Source of the DNA: Gammaproteobacteria bacterium
Lineage (GTDB): Bacteria; Pseudomonadota; Gammaproteobacteria; Chromatiales; Chromatiaceae
Length of the DNA stretch: 64,000 bases
Direction of reading: 5' to 3'
NCBI GenBank assembly: GCA_024227135.1
Contig: JAAELC010000373.1
Span: 4,162-68,161, forward strand
The notes beneath the pieces were generated by a model that was given only the letters and a program-made list of their open reading frames with translations, was not told the DNA's origin and did no database searches. Positions 1 to 59,610 of the stretch are shown in pieces (position 1 is the stretch's first letter; every line of letters begins with the position of its first letter). Both the position numbers and the translations under genes were made by a program.

Positions 1-112
1 TTAGTCGAGTTCGTTAGGGCATCCGAATCGTTATGCGGAATCATATCTTCTCCCCGTTAGTCGAGTTCGATAGGGCATCCGAGTCGTTATGCGGAATCAT
101 GTCTTTTCCCTG
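1..112. repeat. Tandem direct repeat, 2 x 56 bp, starting at the window edge
   Basis: Copy 1 (1-56) is ttagtcgagttcgttagggcatccgaatcgttatgcggaatcatatcttctccccg. Copy 2 (57-112) is ttagtcgagttcgatagggcatccgagtcgttatgcggaatcatgtcttttccctg. There are 5 mismatches and no gaps. Copy 2 carries the stop codon and last 5 codons of the 97..543 CDS. Confidence 0.9.
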
Positions 113-9095: not shown

Positions 9096-10160
9096 CTATT
9101 GTTCGAACAGTGCATCCACAAATTCTTCAGGGTAGAAAGGCCGCAGATCCTCAATTGCTTCTCCCACTCCAATGAAGCGGATGGGTATTCCCAGCCTGTG
9201 GGCGATGGCAAAAACGATTCCACCTTTGGCGGTGCCGTCCAGTTTGGTGAGGACGATGCCGGTAATTCCTACCGACTCGTGGAACTGCCGAGCCTGGTTC
9301 AGCGCGTTCTGCCCGGTGCTTGCATCGATCACGAGCATCACTTCATGGGGGGAATCCGGGTCAATTTTTTTCTGTACCCGGGATATTTTTGAGAGTTCGT
9401 CCATGAGGTTACTCTTGGTGTGAAGTCGCCCTGCCGTGTCGGCAATCAGTACATCCATATTCCGGGCGGTTGCTGCCTGCAGCGCATCGAATATAACCGA
9501 TGCCGAGTCGGCACCGCTTTGCTGGGCAATCACCGGAATGTCGTTGCGCTCACCCCATGTCTGCAGCTGTTCAACAGCGGCCGCACGAAATGTGTCCCCA
9601 GCCGCCAGCATGACGCTTTGGCCCTCTGCTTTGAGGCGTTTGGCCAGTTTTCCGATAGTTGTGGTCTTGCCTGCCCCGTTGACCCCCACCATCATGATGA
9701 CCTGGGGTTTTCCCTCTGCGGCCGGGCGTACCGGTTTTTCGCTGCGCTGCAGGATCTCCAGCAGTTGGGCTTTGAGAATCCGGATCAGTGCTTCCGGGTC
9801 AGACAGCTCTTTGCGTTTGACCATCCAGGCCAGAAGCTCGGTGATTCTGGAGGTGACATCCATGCCCACATCTGCGGTTACCAGCAGAGTCTCCAGATCC
9901 TCGAGCAAATCCTCATCGATGTTTTTCCTCCCAAGCATCAGGTTGGTGAGGCCACCCGAAAAGGTTTTGCGGGTTTTCTCCAGCCGCACTTTCAGGCGGG
10001 AATAAAACCCCTTCTTATCGGGTTGTTCTTCCGATGATGCCTCCCCGCTGCCAGGGTCTTTTTTCTGTTTTCCGAATCCGCGCATATGCGATAGTTCCAG
10101 GGCGCCATGGAACCCATGGGGCGCCGTCTTGTCTCTAGATCGAAGATTAACTTTAGACAT
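9096..10160 (-). CDS. ftsY: Signal recognition particle receptor FtsY
   Basis: SRP GTPase motifs GVNGAGKTTTIGKLA, DTAGR and TKLDGTAKGG, with an acidic N-terminal region. The start is uncertain. The ATG at 10085 (MRGFGKQKKD) is an alternative. Confidence 0.88.
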   Translation of the reverse strand: MSKVNLRSRDKTAPHGFHGALELSHMRGFGKQKKDPGSGEASSEEQPDKKGFYSRLKVRLEKTRKTFSGGLTNLMLGRKNIDEDLLEDLETLLVTADVGMDVTSRITELLAWMVKRKELSDPEALIRILKAQLLEILQRSEKPVRPAAEGKPQVIMMVGVNGAGKTTTIGKLAKRLKAEGQSVMLAAGDTFRAAAVEQLQTWGERNDIPVIAQQSGADSASVIFDALQAATARNMDVLIADTAGRLHTKSNLMDELSKISRVQKKIDPDSPHEVMLVIDASTGQNALNQARQFHESVGITGIVLTKLDGTAKGGIVFAIAHRLGIPIRFIGVGEAIEDLRPFYPEEFVDALFEQ

Positions 10161-10262: not shown

Positions 10263-11630
10263 ATGATAAGAAGTATTTTGATGGTAGTACTGCCGGCTGT
10301 AGTGTTCTCAGCCTGGGCTGAGGGACCGGTGCATGAGTTCGCACTGGATAACAGATTGAAGGTCATCGTAAAAGAGGATCACCGGGCTCCGATCGTCGTC
10401 ACTCAGGTCTGGTATAAAGTGGGATCCTCTTACGAGCCTGCTGGCACCACCGGGGTATCCCACGTCCTGGAGCACATGATGTTCAAAGGTACACCGAACC
10501 ATCCTCCGGGTCAGTTTTCGCGGATAATCGCTGCCAACGGGGGGAGGGAAAATGCCTTCACCGGGCGTGATTACACGGCCTATTTCCAGACACTGTCCCG
10601 GGACAGGCTGGAGATTGCCTTCGAACTGGAAGCTGATCGTATGCGTCATTTGACGCTGCCTGAAGAGGAGTTCAGGAAAGAGATCGAGGTGGTCAAAGAG
10701 GAGCGGCGCATGCGCACCGAGGACAAGCCGACGTCCCTGACGTACGAGCAGTTGCTGGCCGTTGCTTATCGCAATCTACCCTATTCCCACCCCATTATCG
10801 GCTGGATGAGTGACCTGGAGAATATGTCGGTAGATGATCTGCGTCGCTGGTACCAGCTATGGTACGCCCCCAACAATGCAACGCTCGTTGTCGTGGGTGA
10901 CGTTGATCCGGCTGCTGTGTTGAAACTCGCTGAAAAGTACTTCGGTCCTCTCAAGCCGGAGAATATTCCCGCTCAGAAACCCCGGATCGAACCCCCTCAG
11001 CGGGGCGAAACCCGGGTCAGCGTCCGTGCTCCTGCCCGTGAACCCTATCTGATCATGGGCTACAAGACACCGGTGGTCGGACATGCAGATCAGGAGTGGG
11101 AGCCTTATGCGCTGGATATTCTGACCTCGATTCTGGATGGTGGCAGCAGCGCACGACTGACCCGTCGTCTGGTTAGAGGGGAGGAGATCGCAGTATCCGC
11201 CGGAGCCAGTTACAGTGCCTTTGCCCGTCTGCCCGGTATGTTGCTCATGGATGGGGCTCCGGCGCCGGGCCACGATATAGAGGAGGTGGAGCGGGCGTTG
11301 CGGGAGGAGGCTGACCGGCTCAAGAAGGAGCCGGTCAGTGCAGAGGAACTGAGCCGGGTGCGCGCCCAGGTGGTGGCGGGTAAAGTCTACGAGCTGGATT
11401 CGGTGTTTTATCAGGCGATGCAGATCGGTACCCTCGAGACCATCGGTCTGGACTGGCGTTTGATCGATGAATACGCGGAGCGCATCAAAAAGGTCACCCC
11501 GCAGCAGATAAGCCAGGTGGCGCAGAAATATCTGACCGAGGACAATCTGACAGTCGCGGTTCTCGATCCCCTTCCTCTGGATGGAAAAAAACCACTTGCC
11601 TCAAGAGGAGGTCACGATGGGACTCACTAG
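10263..11630 (+). CDS. M16 family zinc peptidase, catalytic-type subunit
   Basis: HxxEH zinc motif (GVSHVLEHMMFKGT). The signal peptide begins at MIRSILMVVLPAVVFSAWA, and GGAG lies 8 nt upstream of the ATG at 10263. The track ORF starts at 10107. Confidence 0.8.
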   Translation: MIRSILMVVLPAVVFSAWAEGPVHEFALDNRLKVIVKEDHRAPIVVTQVWYKVGSSYEPAGTTGVSHVLEHMMFKGTPNHPPGQFSRIIAANGGRENAFTGRDYTAYFQTLSRDRLEIAFELEADRMRHLTLPEEEFRKEIEVVKEERRMRTEDKPTSLTYEQLLAVAYRNLPYSHPIIGWMSDLENMSVDDLRRWYQLWYAPNNATLVVVGDVDPAAVLKLAEKYFGPLKPENIPAQKPRIEPPQRGETRVSVRAPAREPYLIMGYKTPVVGHADQEWEPYALDILTSILDGGSSARLTRRLVRGEEIAVSAGASYSAFARLPGMLLMDGAPAPGHDIEEVERALREEADRLKKEPVSAEELSRVRAQVVAGKVYELDSVFYQAMQIGTLETIGLDWRLIDEYAERIKKVTPQQISQVAQKYLTEDNLTVAVLDPLPLDGKKPLASRGGHDGTH

Positions 11631-12948
11631 AAAAAGCTGGTTTTTACTCGCTGTATTGATGGTTTTCGGGTTGCCTGGAGCCCAGTCATGGGCCGGACCT
11701 GAAATTCAGCAATGGACCACCGATAACGGTGCACGGGTGCTTTTCGTGGAAGCCCCCGGTTTACCAATGCTGGATATACGGGTGGTGTTCGACGCGGGAA
11801 GCGCCCGGGATGGTGACTCTGCGGGCCTGGCCAGTCTGACCAGCGGTCTGCTCGCTGACGGTGCGGCAGACTGGAATGCGGATCAGATCGCCGACCGCCT
11901 CGAGGCCGTCGGCGCCGAGCTGGATACCGGTTCGTTAAGAGATATGGCCTGGGTATCATTGCGAACGCTGACGGACCGGCAAGCCTACGAAAGGTCGGTG
12001 GAAACGATGAGAGCGGTACTTGTTTCCCCGACCTTCGAAACAGACGACCTGGAACGTAACCGCAAGGGAATGCTAACGGCGGTTCGAATAGGAGAGCAGA
12101 AGCCTGGCACCGTAGCCAGTAAAGCCTTCCACCGGGCGGTATTCGGGGATCATCCCTACGCCACTCCGCCGGGTGGTACCCGGGAATCTCTGGAGAGCAT
12201 TTCAAGGGATCAGGTGGTCGCCTTCTACAAGCAACACTACGTGGCGGAAAACGGAGTTGTGGCCATCGTCGGTGCACTCGACCGGCAGCAGGCCGAGCGT
12301 CTGGCTCAGGAGGTGGTTGGAGATTTACCCCGGGGGGTCAAGGCATCGCCTCTCCAACCGGTCAGTGAGCTAAAGCAGGCGCGGCGTATCCAAACCCAGT
12401 TCCCCTCCAGTCAGAGCCATATTCTGATGGGCCAGCCCGGACTCTATCGGGGAGATCCTGACTATTTCGAACTCTATGTAGGAAATCACATCCTGGGTGG
12501 AGGTGGCCTGGTTTCACTTCTGAATGAGGAGGTGAGGGAAAACCGGGGACTGTCGTACAGCGTATACAGCTATTTTTCTCCCATGCGCCGTAGTGGTCCG
12601 TTTGTCATGGGTGCACAAACCCAGAATGCCAAGGCTGATGAAGCGCTGAAGGTTATGGGCGATACCCTGATGCAATTTATCGAGCAAGGGCCTACCGAAG
12701 AACAGTTGACCGCGGCCCGGCAGAATATCACGGGCGGTTTTCCCCTGCGGATCTCCAGTAACAGCAAGATCGTGGAATATCTTTCAATGATTGGATTTTA
12801 CCAGTTGCCACTGGACTATCTGGATGCTTTTACCGGGCGGATAGATGCCGTTACCGTGAAGGGTATACATGATGCATTTCTTCGCCGGGTGCACCCCGAT
12901 CGTTTTGTGACCGTGGTGGTGGGTAATGGCCAGGCGTCGGGGGAGTGA
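11617..12948 (+). CDS. M16 family peptidase-like protein lacking the HxxEH motif (non-catalytic partner)
   Basis: M16 fold with no HxxEH. AGGAGG RBS precedes the ATG at 11617 (MGLTRKSWFLLAVLMVFGLPGA, a signal peptide). It overlaps the upstream peptidase gene by 14 bp. Confidence 0.75.
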   Translation: MGLTRKSWFLLAVLMVFGLPGAQSWAGPEIQQWTTDNGARVLFVEAPGLPMLDIRVVFDAGSARDGDSAGLASLTSGLLADGAADWNADQIADRLEAVGAELDTGSLRDMAWVSLRTLTDRQAYERSVETMRAVLVSPTFETDDLERNRKGMLTAVRIGEQKPGTVASKAFHRAVFGDHPYATPPGGTRESLESISRDQVVAFYKQHYVAENGVVAIVGALDRQQAERLAQEVVGDLPRGVKASPLQPVSELKQARRIQTQFPSSQSHILMGQPGLYRGDPDYFELYVGNHILGGGGLVSLLNEEVRENRGLSYSVYSYFSPMRRSGPFVMGAQTQNAKADEALKVMGDTLMQFIEQGPTEEQLTAARQNITGGFPLRISSNSKIVEYLSMIGFYQLPLDYLDAFTGRIDAVTVKGIHDAFLRRVHPDRFVTVVVGNGQASGE

Positions 12949-23800: not shown

Positions 23801-24253
23801 TTATCTGACACTCGTGAGTTGGGCGAGAATCAATTCTTCGCTCTTTATCTGCCTCAGCTTGTTACAGAAGGCCATGTTGCCGAACAGTGTTGCCAGTTTT
23901 GCCAGTAGATCCAGATGCTCCTGCGTCGCTTGTTCAGGGACGATGAGTCCAAAAGCAAGGTCTACCGGCTGGTTGTCGATGGCATCGAACTGAATCCCCT
24001 CCTGCAGTTGTATGAACGCACCCAGTGCATTGTCTATCCCGGGTATTCGGGCATGGGGCAGGGCGATTCCCTGTCCCAGTCCGGTGCTACCCAGTCGCTC
24101 TCTCTCGAGGAGCTTGTTAACTATTCTCTGGGCATCCATTTTTGGAATAGAAGAGGCGAGTAGTCCTCCCAGTTCTTCCAAAACCCGTTTTTTGCTGGCG
24201 GCTTTGCTCTGGCAGACTATGCGGCCGGCGATGAGAAAGTGCGCGGGAAACAT
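23801..24253 (-). CDS. ptsN: PTS-Ntr EIIA component PtsN
   Basis: The track ORF runs to 24451. The internal ATG at 24253 gives 150 aa. The PTS EIIA-2 phosphorylation site GIALPHARI is present. Confidence 0.88.
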   Translation of the reverse strand: MFPAHFLIAGRIVCQSKAASKKRVLEELGGLLASSIPKMDAQRIVNKLLERERLGSTGLGQGIALPHARIPGIDNALGAFIQLQEGIQFDAIDNQPVDLAFGLIVPEQATQEHLDLLAKLATLFGNMAFCNKLRQIKSEELILAQLTSVR

Positions 24254-24343
24254 TTTTTTTCCAGTGTATCTGTTTGTTACTGTACTGTTGCCATGTGTCA
24301 GATGCAGTGGACCAGGCAATTTATTGGGAGTTCCTGCCGGGAA

Positions 24344-24508
24344 CGAGCCAAGGGCTGCGAAAACAATGAACCGCCCGGCCCTGCTTGTCTCCTGGACCAG
24401 CTTCCGCGTTGTGGGAAAGGGTACACGGAACGGCTGTGCACCCCTTTCCACCCCTCGTATCTGAACCAGAATTCAACACAATTACCGGACATCCATTAAT
24501 TTCCGTGG
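24344..24508 (-). repeat. Intergenic structured repeat element, copy A (hpf-ptsN spacer)
   Basis: By eye the minus-strand sequence is roughly 75-80% identical over about 165 nt to 36659..36827 on the plus strand. Shared blocks are TGGTTCAGAT, GTGGAAAGGGG, CCACAACGCGGAA and TTTTC.GC.GCCCT. A central ~41-nt hairpin is GTGGAAAGGGGTGCAC...GTGTACCCTTTCCCAC. Confidence 0.8.
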
Positions 24509-24666
24509 CCCTAAATGGCAATCAATGACAGCAAGTTATCGAAGGTACGATGGGAAGTGGGGTGTTTCTCCCCGACCTGATTCCATAGTAGTTCGTTTCC
24601 AGCAGTTTTTCTTTCCATTTCTATCGACTATTGCGGCTTGATGAATGGTCCGCACTTAATACCCGA

Positions 24667-24996
24667 TTAGTTTTCCACGGTGTCCATGCCCTTGGGCAGG
24701 GCACCGCTGCGATGGTTGGTGTGTTTTTCCTTATGCTTTTTGACTTGCCGATCAATCTTGTCCACCAGTCCATCGATTGCGGCATACATATCCTCTTCTT
24801 CGCACTCGGCAAATACGTCAGTTCCGTTCAGATGAAGAGATGCCTCTGCCTTCTGACGCAGTTTTTCTACACTTAGAATGACGTGGACATTGGTCACATG
24901 GTCGAAATGACGCTCCAGGCGTTCGAACTTGGAATTCACGTAGCTTCTTAGTGCTTCGGTGATGTCCACATGGTGACCGGTAAGGCTGATTTGCAT
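24667..24996 (-). CDS. hpf: Ribosome hibernation promoting factor (short HPF/YhbH type)
   Basis: 109 aa starting MQISLTGHHVDITEALRSYVNSKFERLERHFD. It lies 23 bp after the rpoN stop. Confidence 0.92.
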   Translation of the reverse strand: MQISLTGHHVDITEALRSYVNSKFERLERHFDHVTNVHVILSVEKLRQKAEASLHLNGTDVFAECEEEDMYAAIDGLVDKIDRQVKKHKEKHTNHRSGALPKGMDTVEN

Positions 24997-35616: not shown

Positions 35617-36654
35617 ATGGACATCGCTGAACTACTCGCTTTCAGTGTTAAACACGAAGCTTCAGATTTACATCTGTCTTCCGGGTTGCCACCCATGATC
35701 CGGGTGGATGGGGATATCCGACGGATCAACGTTCCGGCTCTGGAGCACAAAACGGTCCACGAGCTTGTCTACGACATCATGAACGACAAGCAGCGCAAGG
35801 ATTATGAAGAGTTTCTCGAAACGGACTTTTCCTTCGAAATCCCGGGGCTGGCGCGATTTCGTGTCAACGCTTTCAACCAGGACCGGGGGGCGGCTGCGGT
35901 CTTTCGAACCATTCCATCCAAGGTACTGACGCTGGAAGATCTGGGATGTCCGGATACCTTTCGCGACATCGTCAACGTACCCCGGGGGCTGGTTCTGGTA
36001 ACAGGCCCGACCGGATCCGGTAAGTCTACGACGCTGGCGGCTATGGTGGACTACAAGAACGACAACGATTATGCCCACATTCTGACCATCGAAGATCCCA
36101 TTGAGTTTGTGCATGTCAGCAAAAAGAGTCTCATAAACCAGCGAGAGGTGCATAGGGATACCCTGGGCTTTGCGGAGGCGCTTCGTTCAGCACTGCGTGA
36201 AGACCCTGATATCATCCTGGTCGGTGAGCTGCGGGATCTTGAGACCATTCGCCTGGCATTGACCGCTGCGGAGACCGGACATCTGGTCTTCGGTACCTTG
36301 CACACCAGTTCGGCCGCCAAGACGATCGACCGTATTATCGACGTTTTCCCGGCAGCGGAGAAGGGCATGGTGCGCTCCATGCTTTCGGAGTCGCTGCGGT
36401 CGGTGATTGCTCAATCGCTGCTGAAGAAGATTGGCGGGGGACGGACTGCCGCCTGGGAAATCATGGTGGGAACTCCGGCAATCCGAAACCTGATTCGTGA
36501 AGACAAAGTGGCTCAGATGTACTCATCGATTCAAACCGGTCAGGCCCATGGTATGCAGACGCTGGACCAGCACCTGCTGGAACTGGTAAAAAAGGGTATG
36601 ATTAGTCGACTGGATGCCCAATCGAAGGCGGCAAACAAAGATGTTTTCAACTAA
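35617..36654 (+). CDS. pilT: Type IV pilus retraction ATPase PilT
   Basis: 345 aa with ASDLHLSSGLPPMIRVDGD, Walker A GPTGSGKST and the PilT signature AHGMQTLDQ. Confidence 0.95.
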   Translation: MDIAELLAFSVKHEASDLHLSSGLPPMIRVDGDIRRINVPALEHKTVHELVYDIMNDKQRKDYEEFLETDFSFEIPGLARFRVNAFNQDRGAAAVFRTIPSKVLTLEDLGCPDTFRDIVNVPRGLVLVTGPTGSGKSTTLAAMVDYKNDNDYAHILTIEDPIEFVHVSKKSLINQREVHRDTLGFAEALRSALREDPDIILVGELRDLETIRLALTAAETGHLVFGTLHTSSAAKTIDRIIDVFPAAEKGMVRSMLSESLRSVIAQSLLKKIGGGRTAAWEIMVGTPAIRNLIREDKVAQMYSSIQTGQAHGMQTLDQHLLELVKKGMISRLDAQSKAANKDVFN

Positions 36655-36658
36655 GGGT

Positions 36659-36827
36659 CGCGGAAATCAATAAATGTCCAGAAATTGCGCTGGATTTTGG
36701 TTCAGATTCAAGGCGTGGAAAGGGGCGCATAGTTGTTCTATGCAACCTTTTCCACAACGCGGAAACTGGGCCAAAAGACCAGCAAGACTGGATAACTATT
36801 TTTTTTCCGCGGCCCTAAGCCTGCTCG
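36659..36827 (+). repeat. Intergenic structured repeat element, copy B (fills the pilT-pilU spacer)
   Basis: Homologous to 24344..24508 on the minus strand. The central hairpin at 36715-36755 is GTGGAAAGG-ggc-GCATAG-ttgtt-CTATGC-aa-CCTTTTCCAC. CGCGGAAA at 36659 and 36758 can each pair with TTTCCGCG at about 36805. Confidence 0.8.
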
Positions 36828-36857
36828 AAGTCGAGTGATGGGAAAAGGGGGGTAGTC

Positions 36858-37982
36858 GTGGATTTTGAACTGCTACTGAAACTTGTAGCTGAGAAAAGGG
36901 CTTCGGACCTTTTTATCACGGTGGGAATGCCCCCTTGCATCAAGCTTGATGGTCGTCTCATGCCGATTTCCAAGAAGCGGCTGGACGAAGAACAGACCAG
37001 GGACATGGTGCTGGGGACCATGTCTCCTGCCCAGCAAGAGGAGTTTGCCCAGACCAAGGAGTGCAATTTCGCCATCAGCTCCGCTGGTGGGGGGCGGTTC
37101 AGGGTAAGCGCATTCGTGCAGCGGAATTCGGTAGGGATGGTGTTACGTCGCATCGAGGGAATAATCCCCGAACTCGACGAACTGAAGCTGCCCCCGTTGC
37201 TGAAGGACCTTGCCATGACGAAGCGTGGTCTGGTGATCTTTGTCGGTGCCACGGGAACAGGAAAATCCACCTCGCTGGCCGCATTGATCGGCTTTCGAAA
37301 TCACAATAGCACCGGTCACATCGTTACCATCGAGGACCCGATCGAATTTACCCATCAGCACGCGGGTTGCATCGTCACCCAGAGAGAGGTGGGAATAGAT
37401 ACCGAATCCTATAATATTGCGCTCCAGAATACCCTGCGCCAGGCCCCGGATGTCATACTGATCGGAGAGATTCGCAGTCGGGATACCATGGATTATGCCA
37501 TTGCTTTTGCAGAAACCGGTCACCTGTGTCTTTCCACGCTTCATGCCAATAATGCCAACCAGGCGCTGGACCGTATCATCAATTTTTTCCCCGAAGAACG
37601 GCGGGACCAGTTATTCATGGACCTGTCATTGAATCTGAGGGCTATCGTTGCCCAGCAGCTGGTGCGGCGTACCGATGGGGATGGGCGGTTGGCGGCGGTT
37701 GAAATTCTGGTTAACACCCCCCTGGCTTCAGATCTGATAAGAAAGGGGGAGGTCCACAAGCTTAAAGACCTGATGAAGCGATCCACCGAGCAAGGCATGA
37801 TTACCTTCGATCAGGCGCTCTACACGCTCTACAAACAGGGTGAAATCAGTTACGAAGACGCCATTCTTTGCGCCGACAGCGCCAACGAGGTCCGTTTGAT
37901 GGTCAAGCTGGGCAGTGGGGAAGTGGATAAGTACCCCTCCAAGCTGGGATCGGTATCATTGCTGGACGATCAGGACTACTGA
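36858..37982 (+). CDS. pilU: PilT-family ATPase PilU
   Basis: 374 aa with a GTG start after a G-rich RBS. Motifs are ASDLFITVGMPPCIKLDG and Walker A GATGTGKST. It lies downstream of pilT. Confidence 0.9.
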   Translation: MDFELLLKLVAEKRASDLFITVGMPPCIKLDGRLMPISKKRLDEEQTRDMVLGTMSPAQQEEFAQTKECNFAISSAGGGRFRVSAFVQRNSVGMVLRRIEGIIPELDELKLPPLLKDLAMTKRGLVIFVGATGTGKSTSLAALIGFRNHNSTGHIVTIEDPIEFTHQHAGCIVTQREVGIDTESYNIALQNTLRQAPDVILIGEIRSRDTMDYAIAFAETGHLCLSTLHANNANQALDRIINFFPEERRDQLFMDLSLNLRAIVAQQLVRRTDGDGRLAAVEILVNTPLASDLIRKGEVHKLKDLMKRSTEQGMITFDQALYTLYKQGEISYEDAILCADSANEVRLMVKLGSGEVDKYPSKLGSVSLLDDQDY

Positions 37983-59512: not shown

Positions 59513-59535
59513 GTTTTCGGTTCTCCGTAGAAAAA

Positions 59536-59610
59536 CGTAAGCGCCGTTGTTGTTGCTCCCCTCCGAGCCTGGCAGAGACTGCGGTCTCTGTTGCAACGCT
59601 TCTCGGAGGG
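59536..59610 (-). promoter_or_regulatory. SAH riboswitch (S-adenosylhomocysteine-sensing, ahcY leader)
   Basis: Minus-sense sequence is CCUCCGAGAAGCGUUGCAACAGAGACCGCAGUCUCUGCCAGGCUCGGAGGGGAGCAACAACAACGGCGCUUAC. P1 is CUCCGAG/CUCGGAG and the hairpin is AGAGAC/GUCUCU. The pseudoknot is AAGCG/CGCUU. The hallmark GCCAGGCUCGG and AACGGCGCU blocks are present. Confidence 0.85.

What the first reader, a model, noticed from the sequence alone, without database searches (positions are those of the whole stretch)
36655..36857. Copy B of the structured repeat fills the entire pilT-pilU spacer
The element starts 5 nt after the pilT stop and ends about 30 nt before the pilU GTG. It therefore occupies essentially all of the spacer and has the same orientation as the genes. 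The same is true of copy A relative to hpf and ptsN. The central hairpin (36715-36755) is GTGGAAAGG/CCTTTTCCAC plus GCATAG/CTATGC. Three CGCGGAAA / TTTCCGCG segments (36659, 36758, ~36805) offer mutually exclusive long-range pairings. A T8 run precedes the last arm. An element transcribed within two unrelated operons, just upstream of the downstream gene's RBS, suggests an RNA-level role such as processing, stability, translation control or protein titration. It looks less like a DNA site.
Basis: seen in the sequence. Interest (0 to 1): 0.65.

Follow-up and report, generated by a model that had tools for sequence, protein, structure and literature searches.

The report
Palindromic mobile repeat between pilT and pilU
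The structured sequence between pilT and pilU is a copy of a small mobile DNA repeat (a MITE). It inserted exactly at the pilT stop codon and belongs to an unnamed, widespread family, so it is not a regulator that evolved for this operon.

Summary
The repeat is real. Window 36655-36815 is a 161-nt imperfect palindrome (RNA fold z = -8.1). A 74-76% identical copy lies at 24352-24511 on the minus strand.

It does not fill the whole spacer. The last 39-42 nt correspond to the native pilT-pilU spacer and its ribosome-binding site.

The closest relatives are Sedimenticola-like gammaproteobacteria with identical gene order. Their pilT-pilU spacers are 30-40 nt and their hpf-ptsN spacers 24-26 nt, with no element. 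Both window copies are therefore lineage-specific insertions.

Eleven further clear copies were found elsewhere. Eight of them, plus about four weak or variant matches, lie in 38 kb of one MAG. Copies occur in either orientation to neighbouring genes.

Eleven of 15 copies are flanked by identical TAA or TTA trinucleotides, i.e. a 3-bp TWA target-site duplication next to GGGYCGCGGAAA inverted termini. In the window the left duplicate is the pilT stop codon.

No match was found in Rfam, E. coli genomes (so not ERIC), plasmids, phages or the literature.

Verdict: a new family of a known kind, a Tourist/IS5-like MITE. It is probably co-transcribed as a long hairpin, which may affect the mRNA as ERIC and Correia elements do.

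One observation is unexplained. All 12 full copies fold better on the same strand, with compensatory substitutions. The proposed alternative pairing has probability of about 0.

The parts
36652..36654 (+). TAA. It is both the pilT stop codon and the left copy of the 3-bp target-site duplication.
   Evidence: The identical TAA follows the element at 36816-36818.
36655..36815 (+). Copy B of the repeat: a 161-nt imperfect palindrome, GGGTCGCGGAAA...TTTCCGCGGCCC, with its canonical strand on +.
   Evidence: Fold -93.8 kcal/mol, z = -8.1. Covariance model R1 scores 199.6 bits. The element is absent from orthologous spacers.
36655..36667 (+). Left terminal inverted repeat (GGGTCGCGGAAAT).
   Evidence: Conserved as GGGYCGCGGAAA in 12 copies.
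36715..36755 (+). Apical hairpin of the palindrome (GTGGAAAGGGGCGCATAG / CTATGCAACCTTTTCCAC).
   Evidence: Helix 5 of the model shows 5 pairs with double changes.
36803..36815 (+). Right terminal inverted repeat (TTTTCCGCGGCCC), preceded by the T-run at 36799-36806.
36816..36818 (+). TAA, the right copy of the target-site duplication.
36819..36857 (+). Residual native pilT-pilU spacer. It holds a small hairpin (CTCGAAGTCGAG) and the pilU ribosome-binding run AAGGGGGG (36845-36852). It is not part of the repeat.
   Evidence: Relatives have 30-40 nt spacers ending in a GGGGG run before the start codon.
24352..24511 (-). Copy A of the repeat (GGGCCACGGAAA...TTTTCGCAGCCC). It lies inside the 413-nt hpf-ptsN spacer and is flanked by TTA / TTG.
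   Evidence: R1 scores 181.7 bits. Orthologous spacers are 24-26 nt.

Best explanation
Window 36655-36815 is a non-autonomous transposable element, a MITE. It is about 160 nt, has no coding capacity, and is palindromic over its whole length. Its inverted termini are GGGYCGCGGAAA, and it integrates at TWA trinucleotides, which it duplicates.

Copy B inserted exactly at the TAA stop codon of pilT. The left duplicate still terminates pilT, and the native 39-nt spacer with the pilU ribosome-binding site follows the right duplicate. Copy A is an older, more decayed insertion of the same family between hpf and ptsN.

Shown here:
- the insertion status of both copies;
- the termini and the target duplication;
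- multi-copy dispersal in other genomes, in either orientation;
- conservation of the hairpin through compensatory changes.

Inferred:
- Mobilisation in trans by a DDE transposase of the IS5 / PIF-Harbinger type. These are the groups known for TWA or TNA 3-bp duplications.
- Co-transcription with pilT-pilU into a hairpin of about 62 bp and about -85 kcal/mol.
- By analogy with Correia and ERIC elements, that hairpin could be cut by RNase III or E, or could block 3' exonucleases. Either would shift the pilT:pilU expression ratio as a by-product of the insertion, not as its purpose.
For: 1. Empty sites. Contigs of the closest relatives have identical gene order. Their pilT-pilU spacers are 30-40 nt and their hpf-ptsN spacers 24-26 nt, against 203 and 413 nt in the window. 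Removing 36655-36818 leaves a 39-nt spacer.

2. Dispersed copies. R1 finds full-length copies in:
- L001, a MAG labelled Gammaproteobacteria bacterium Cca_20;
- L019;
- L042;
- 38 kb of MAG GCA_947259325.1, with 8 strong and about 4 weak or variant copies.
A translated frame of the element also hits 48 clusters of spurious ORFs among 1.84 billion representative proteins.

3. Target duplication. Identical TAA or TTA lies on both sides in 11 of 15 copies. This includes two divergent subfamilies with other termini, L045:9245-9435 and L046:10145-10313. The palindromic alternative, TTA...TAA, is seen once. A 2-bp TA model gives inconsistent element ends.

4. Orientation is mixed relative to genes.

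5. Some copies disrupt or extend genes: PCuAC in L042, ackA in L045 and an M23 peptidase in L001.

6. Literature. TWA duplications characterise PIF/Harbinger, which is related to bacterial IS5 (PMC4482050). MITEs at gene 3' ends are co-transcribed and processed by RNase III (Correia) or RNase E (ERIC) (PMC10969869, PMC3184786).
Against: - No autonomous partner with the same termini was found. No transposase occurs in the window or in the roughly 120 kb of copy-bearing loci, apart from an unrelated rve gene in L042 and a RAYT-like gene in L046.
- The window has only two copies in 64 kb, so recent activity in this genome is not shown.
- Four of 15 copies have imperfect flanking repeats.
- All 12 full copies fold better on the same strand by a mean of 16.5 kcal/mol, with 63 G.U against 8 A.C cells in the model pairs. 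A plain cut-and-paste double-stranded DNA element does not predict this.
- No expression data exist, so co-transcription and any RNase processing are untested.
Confidence: 0.85

Rival explanations
1. A dedicated cis-regulatory RNA (processing, stability or translation control, or a protein-titration site) that evolved for the pilT-pilU and hpf-ptsN operons.
For: - Both window copies are sense to their operons and lie upstream of the downstream gene's ribosome-binding site.
- The fold is strong.
- Compensatory changes keep the hairpin.
Against: - The element is absent from the orthologous spacers of all close relatives examined.
- The same element occurs at unrelated loci, in both orientations, in convergent and divergent intergenic regions and inside genes.
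- It has a target-site duplication.
- It matches no Rfam family.
- The proposed alternative pairing has probability about 0, and its inner segment is not conserved.
Confidence: 0.04
2. A REPIN-like element mobilised as single-stranded DNA by a REP-associated tyrosine (Y1/HUH) transposase.
For: - All copies fold better on the same strand, as expected if one DNA strand's hairpin is the substrate.
- One divergent copy (L046:10145-10313) lies 22 nt upstream of a RAYT-like gene. That gene scores 58 bits against NCBIfam REP_Tyr_transpos (cut-off 80) and 38 bits against Pfam Y1_Tnp (cut-off 23).
Against: - A 3-bp TWA duplication flanks most copies. Y1 transposases are not known to make such duplications (established knowledge of IS200/IS605 and RAYTs).
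- The termini lack the GTAG or CGTC tags of REPs (PMC3733652), and the element is not built from two short REP hairpins.
- The L046 RAYT-like gene has its own, different flanking inverted repeats (GGGGACAGGcGAT), and the element sits between these and the gene. The adjacency therefore looks like a chance insertion.
Confidence: 0.06
3. A dispersed small-RNA gene, or a mobile structured RNA, expressed from the canonical strand of each copy.
For: - The canonical strand is more stable in 12 of 12 copies, whatever the orientation of neighbouring genes.
- G.U cells outnumber A.C cells 63 to 8.
- Eleven pairs show double changes, and 0 of 500 shuffles reach the observed covariation score.
Against: - No recurrent sigma-70-like promoter or intrinsic terminator is found in or next to copies.
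- It matches no Rfam family.
- The copies are related by descent and the alignment was fitted to the model, so the covariation statistics are inflated.
- An unbiased arm-to-arm comparison of four copies gave only 25 G.U-type against 17 A.C-type mismatches.
Confidence: 0.05

Closest known systems
Tourist-like MITEs of the PIF/Harbinger - IS5 superfamily (in bacteria, IS5-family groups with 3-bp TNA duplications)
   Same: - A short non-coding element with inverted termini that begin with G residues.
- A 3-bp TWA (TAA or TTA) target-site duplication (PMC4482050).
- Many dispersed copies.
   Different: - No cognate transposase was found.
- PIF/Harbinger and Tourist are eukaryotic names.
- The assignment to a bacterial IS5 subgroup rests on my memory of the ISfinder tables, not on a test.
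- The element is palindromic over its whole length, not only at the termini.
ERIC (enterobacterial repetitive intergenic consensus)
   Same: - An imperfect palindrome of 127-160 nt in intergenic regions, often inside operons at gene 3' ends and in either orientation.
- It is co-transcribed, and its RNA hairpin can change mRNA decay (PMC10969869, PMC3184786).
   Different: - There is no sequence similarity: no blastn match in 5,426 E. coli genomes, which carry ERIC.
- ERIC-type elements are reported with TA flanks, whereas this family has TWA.
- The host clade is different.
Correia / CREE / NEMIS elements of Neisseria
   Same: A MITE of about 100-160 bp found next to genes and co-transcribed. 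Its inverted repeats form a hairpin that RNase III cuts (PMC10969869). It can supply gene ends.
   Different: Correia elements duplicate TA and carry promoters and an IHF site. None of these features was found here. There is no sequence relation (recalled, not tested against Neisseria DNA).
bcr1 repeats of the Bacillus cereus group
   Same: A mobile repeat of about 155 bp with short direct repeats. It is transcribed, and base-pair compensatory changes keep its structure at the RNA level (PMC3184786).
   Different: bcr1 has a 5-bp duplication, a different sequence and Gram-positive hosts.
REP / REPIN elements with RAYT transposases
   Same: Intergenic palindromic repeats in high copy number that fold as a hairpin on one strand.
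   Different: REPs carry GTAG or CGTC tags and have no target duplication (PMC3733652). This family has TWA duplications and no such tag.

Membership tests
Prokaryotic MITE (non-autonomous DDE-type element) | Small size (about 50-500 bp) and no transposase gene | tested here: met
   The element is 160-162 nt. Its ORFs of 35-64 aa are not conserved between copies: the frame is broken in L001 and frameshifted in L019.
Prokaryotic MITE (non-autonomous DDE-type element) | Terminal inverted repeats | tested here: met
   GGGYCGCGGAAA / TTTCCGCGRCCC are found in 12 copies. Helix 1 has 97.4% of cells paired.
Prokaryotic MITE (non-autonomous DDE-type element) | Target-site duplication flanking the termini | tested here: met
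   Identical TAA or TTA lies on both sides in 11 of 15 copies. The other 4 differ by one base.
Prokaryotic MITE (non-autonomous DDE-type element) | Multiple dispersed copies at unrelated loci | tested here: met
   There are 2 copies in the window, 8 strong and about 4 weak or variant copies in 38 kb of GCA_947259325.1, and copies in L001, L019, L042 and L046. 48 ORF clusters derive from the element.
Prokaryotic MITE (non-autonomous DDE-type element) | Presence/absence at orthologous sites (empty sites) | tested here: met
   The element is absent from pilT-pilU in L003, L004, L008 and L009 and from hpf-ptsN in L010-L018. The relatives are only 82-84% (PilU) and 69% (PtsN) identical, so the empty sites come from other species, not other strains.
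Prokaryotic MITE (non-autonomous DDE-type element) | A cognate autonomous IS with the same termini | not tested
None was seen in the loci held.
IS5 / PIF-Harbinger-type (Tourist-like) MITE | 3-bp TWA (TNA) target duplication | tested here: met
   The criterion comes from PMC4482050.
IS5 / PIF-Harbinger-type (Tourist-like) MITE | Mobilised by a DDE transposase of that superfamily | not testable with these tools
   No partner element is available, and a transposition assay would be needed.
ERIC | Sequence similarity to the ERIC consensus present in E. coli | tested here: not met
   No blastn match (word 11, E <= 0.01) in 20,395 E. coli records.
REP / REPIN (RAYT-mobilised) | GTAG or CGTC tag at the end of a short G+C-rich palindrome, and no target duplication | tested here: not met
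   The termini are GGGYCGCGG preceded by TWA, and a duplication is present. The criterion comes from PMC3733652.
REP / REPIN (RAYT-mobilised) | RAYT gene flanked by the repeat on both sides | tested here: not met
   The one adjacent RAYT-like gene (L046) has a copy on one side only. It has its own, different flanking repeats.
Described structured RNA family (Rfam 15) | Match to a covariance model at or near its gathering score | tested here: not met
   The only match above gathering score in the window is the SAH riboswitch, elsewhere. Within 36600-36900 only chance-level matches appear, at 14 bits against cut-offs of 50-100.

The most novel reading that the evidence does not exclude
The family is more than a decaying MITE. 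Its full-length hairpin is kept foldable on one particular strand across diverged subfamilies and hosts, through G.U intermediates and compensatory changes. This happens regardless of the direction of neighbouring genes.

That would mean a single-stranded form of the element is functional. It could be an RNA made from the element itself, or a single-stranded DNA stage of a TWA-duplicating transposition pathway. Either way, the element would be a mobile structured-nucleic-acid module of a type not yet described in bacteria.
Probability: 0.12. Interest if true: 0.65.

Novelty: new member of a known kind. Interest (0 to 1): 0.3.

Why it matters
- For this locus: the long pilT-pilU and hpf-ptsN spacers are scars of transposition. 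They should not be read as conserved regulatory RNAs. The pilT stop codon is one half of a target-site duplication.

- More broadly: the work defines an apparently unnamed MITE superfamily in marine, Sedimenticola-like and other bacteria. Its features are a length of about 160 nt, a TWA duplication and a conserved core hairpin.
  - In one MAG it reaches about one copy per 4-5 kb in the 38 kb sampled. That sample was chosen because it held copies.
  - Its ends read TWA-GGG on both strands, so it offers TAA or TAG stops and is tolerated right at gene ends.
  - It breaks assemblies: a contig of L044 starts inside a copy.
  - It has seeded at least 48 clusters of spurious 'hypothetical proteins' and chimeric gene ends in public protein sets.

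- If the hairpin is processed in mRNA, such insertions would be a ready source of changes in operon stoichiometry.

Tried and rejected
Searches that found nothing useful:
- An exact-pattern scan of the core (GGTTCAGATNNNNGGNGTGGAAAGG) in genome contigs found only L001. In metagenome contigs it found one chance hit, L002. In viral contigs it found none.
- A terminus 15-mer in viral contigs gave 22 hits. All were chance, with no covariance-model match.
- blastn found no match in plasmids, phages or E. coli genomes.
- Exact look-ups of the window's PilT and HPr are not on record.
- A word-indexed protein search with the plus-frame ORF gave one hit, P0241, which led to L019. The unindexed profile search with the minus frame was far more productive.
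- Literature searches by assembly accession and by terminus or core sequence strings gave nothing relevant.

Ideas rejected:
- A real small protein encoded by the ATG ORFs at 36674-36838 and 24298-24492. The frame is broken in L001 and shifted in L019, and matched segments sit at arbitrary positions in unrelated 'proteins'.
- An integron attC site. The element has no RYYYAAC/GTTRRRY cores.
- An intrinsic terminator. The T-run lies inside the 3' arm, 4-5 nt from the inner stem, and becomes an A-run in antisense copies.
- A riboswitch-like toggle between the CGCGGAAA segments.
- A 2-bp TA duplication, which gives inconsistent element ends.
- The L003 match at 25.7 bits. It belongs to a different, 270-nt palindromic insertion.

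Full report
**Observation**

pilT (35617-36654) ends with TAA at 36652-36654, and pilU starts with GTG at 36858.

The motifs belong to one object: a 161-nt imperfect palindrome at 36655-36815, running from GGGTCGCGGAAA to TTTCCGCGGCCC. As RNA, the region 36650-36860 folds at -93.8 kcal/mol, against -59 for shuffled sequence. That gives z = -8.1, and none of 200 shuffles does as well.

A repeat search over the whole window pairs 36642-36791 with 24375-24524 as an inverted match of 76%. Copy A therefore lies on the minus strand (24352-24511). It sits between hpf (24667-24996, minus) and ptsN (ATG at 24253, minus), and is sense to those genes.

A covariance model (R1) run with its filters off finds only these two copies in the 64 kb. 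Rfam has nothing for either copy.

**Is it conserved at the locus?**

It is not. The best PilU relatives are 82-84% identical, and the named hits are Sedimenticola and related gammaproteobacterial MAGs.

Their contigs have the same gene order over about 20 kb, but pilT and pilU are only 30-40 nt apart. Their hpf and ptsN are 24-26 nt apart, against 413 nt in the window.

If 36655-36818 is removed, 39 nt remain between the pilT stop and the pilU GTG. These end in the same G-run ribosome-binding site as in the relatives. The element therefore occupies 161 of the 203 spacer bases, and the rest is the native spacer.

**Is it a dispersed repeat?**

My first pattern scans were too strict. They returned one true copy (L001, a MAG labelled Gammaproteobacteria bacterium Cca_20) and one chance hit.

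Searching protein collections with translated frames of the element worked better, because gene callers often call ORFs on it.
- One frame gave P0241, which led to L019.
- The other frame gave 48 representative 'proteins' at E <= 0.001. The matched segment sits at arbitrary positions in them, or is fused to truncated real genes.

Fetching a few of these contigs gave:
- L042;
- L043 and L045 (both from GCA_947259325.1), and L044 (GCA_945787615.1), which repeats the L043 copy;
- L046.

R1 finds 8 strong copies (125-175 bits) and about 4 weak or variant ones in the 38 kb of L043 plus L045. That is roughly one copy per 4-5 kb. The loci were chosen for holding a copy, so this density is biased upward.

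**Anatomy across copies**

- Termini are GGGYCGCGGAAA / TTTCCGCGRCCC. Two divergent subfamilies have other termini: GGGCTCGCGAAAAAA in L045:9245-9435 and GGATCGGGGACGAAA in L046.
- Immediately outside the termini, 11 of 15 copies have the same trinucleotide on both sides. It is TAA in six copies and TTA in five. The other four differ by one base.
- If these bases belonged to the palindrome, the flanks would read TTA...TAA. That is seen once.
- The flanks are therefore a 3-bp TWA target-site duplication. This is the signature of PIF/Harbinger and related IS5-type DDE transposons (PMC4482050).
- In the window, the left duplicate is the pilT stop codon.
- Both ends read T-W-A-G-G-G when entered from outside, so the element offers an upstream ORF a TAA or TAG stop. 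In L019, and in L045 (the patatin-like gene and pta), the gene's stop is made this way.
- In L001 the peptidase ORF runs 19 nt into the element. In L042 and L045 copies interrupt genes (PCuAC and ackA).

**Orientation**

Among copies lying between co-directional genes:
- window B, window A and L043:12022 are sense;
- L001, L019, L043:10027 and L043:14570 are antisense.

Other copies lie between convergent or divergent genes.

**Structure**

On the 12-copy model alignment A8:
- 96.6% of cells in the 49 pairs are standard pairs;
- 11 pairs show changes on both sides;
- the covariation score is 0.247, against 0.170 for shuffles, and none of 500 shuffles reaches it;
- sliding the 3' partners drops pairing to 39-50%.

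The copies are related by descent and the alignment was fitted to the model, so these figures are generous.

All 12 copies fold better on the canonical strand than on its complement, by 5.5-25 kcal/mol and 16.5 on average. This holds whatever the direction of neighbouring genes. The paired cells comprise 498 Watson-Crick, 63 G.U, 8 A.C and 12 others. An unbiased arm-to-arm comparison of four copies was less lopsided, at 25 against 17.

No promoter-like or terminator-like site recurs in the copies. I leave the asymmetry unexplained. It is the only feature that goes beyond an ordinary MITE. Base-pair compensatory changes that maintain an RNA-level structure have been reported for another mobile repeat, bcr1 (PMC3184786).

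**The alternative-pairing idea**

The inner CGCGGAAA (36758) pairs with TTTCCGCG (36804) with probability about 0. The best structure containing that helix is 21 kcal/mol worse than the optimum. The inner segment also varies between copies and is deleted in L001.

**Rivals**

- A dedicated cis-regulator is contradicted by the empty orthologous sites, the target duplication and the unrelated insertion contexts.
- A REPIN/RAYT origin is suggested by the strand asymmetry and by a RAYT-like gene next to the L046 copy. That gene has its own, different flanking repeats. The element lacks the GTAG or CGTC tags of REPs (PMC3733652). Y1 transposases are not known to duplicate targets.
- A small-RNA gene lacks promoter or terminator support.

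**Comparison with known elements**

The element behaves like ERIC and Correia: an intergenic, operon-embedded palindrome that folds into an RNA hairpin and could be processed (PMC10969869, PMC3184786).

It is not ERIC, since there is no match in 5,426 E. coli genomes. Its TWA duplication sets it apart from the elements reported with TA flanks.

It meets every structural criterion of a MITE tested here. The cognate transposase was not found. No paper in the library contains its terminus or core strings in a relevant context.

**Verdict**

This is a real feature that has been given the wrong meaning. It is a copy of a new, unnamed family of a known kind, a Tourist/IS5-like MITE, inserted at the pilT stop codon. 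Any effect on pilU expression is a plausible but untested by-product.

Confidence is 0.85 and interest is 0.3. There is a 0.12 chance that the one-strand structural constraint reflects a functional single-stranded form, which would be considerably more interesting.

Noticed in passing
window 24254-24351 and 24512-24666 (minus-strand spacer between hpf and ptsN): The hpf-ptsN spacer is 413 nt, against 24-26 nt in relatives. Only 160 nt of it is repeat copy A. The other roughly 250 nt match nothing found here. An imperfect 19-nt direct repeat (74%) lies at the two borders of the spacer (24252-24270 and 24666-24684). It may be chance.
   Followed up: partly
window 59532-59610 (-): SAH riboswitch aptamer, 66.1 bits against a gathering score of 37.
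   Followed up: no
window 1-112: Two tandem 56-nt units, 91% identical, at the very start of the window.
   Followed up: no
window 36674-36838 (+) and 24298-24492 (-): ATG-started ORFs of 54 and 64 aa inside the two repeat copies, 50% identical to each other. They are not conserved in other copies. The family has produced at least 48 clusters of spurious or chimeric 'proteins' in public collections.
   Followed up: yes
L003 16338-16607 versus L004 ~12655-12670: A different 270-nt, very stable palindromic insertion (fold -169 kcal/mol, z = -13.8). Its ends are TAGGGCCTGCTAAC.../...GTTAACAGGCCCTA. It separates apbE and tonB in one contig and is absent from a near-identical contig. It supplies the apbE stop codon.
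   Followed up: partly
L012 7411-7584 versus L010 ~7411: A 174-nt palindromic insertion that is absent in L010. It has outer inverted repeats GGCTCTTCCCCTGAT... Inside is an inverted pair of GTAG-tagged small palindromes (GTAGGGTCGAATTCATTCGACC), which looks like a REPIN nested in another element.
   Followed up: no
L046 10335-11252, with repeats at 9884, 9976, 11554, 11607 and 11663: A RAYT-like Y1 transposase gene (Pfam Y1_Tnp 38 bits; NCBIfam REP_Tyr_transpos 58 bits, below its cut-off). It is flanked by its own inverted GGGGACAGGcGAT repeats and by a 56-nt tandem repeat (11580-11691). A divergent copy of the studied MITE is inserted 22 nt upstream of its start.
   Followed up: partly
L045 10001-10640, and L044 1-96: ackA is split into two short fragments around a repeat copy. 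One contig begins inside a copy, which suggests the repeat breaks metagenome assemblies.
   Followed up: no
window 36640-36654 compared with L003, L004, L008 and L009: PilT ends ...KDVFN* (345 aa) in the window and ...KETFAA* (346 aa, TGA stop) in relatives. The C-terminus and the stop codon therefore differ right at the insertion point.
   Followed up: partly
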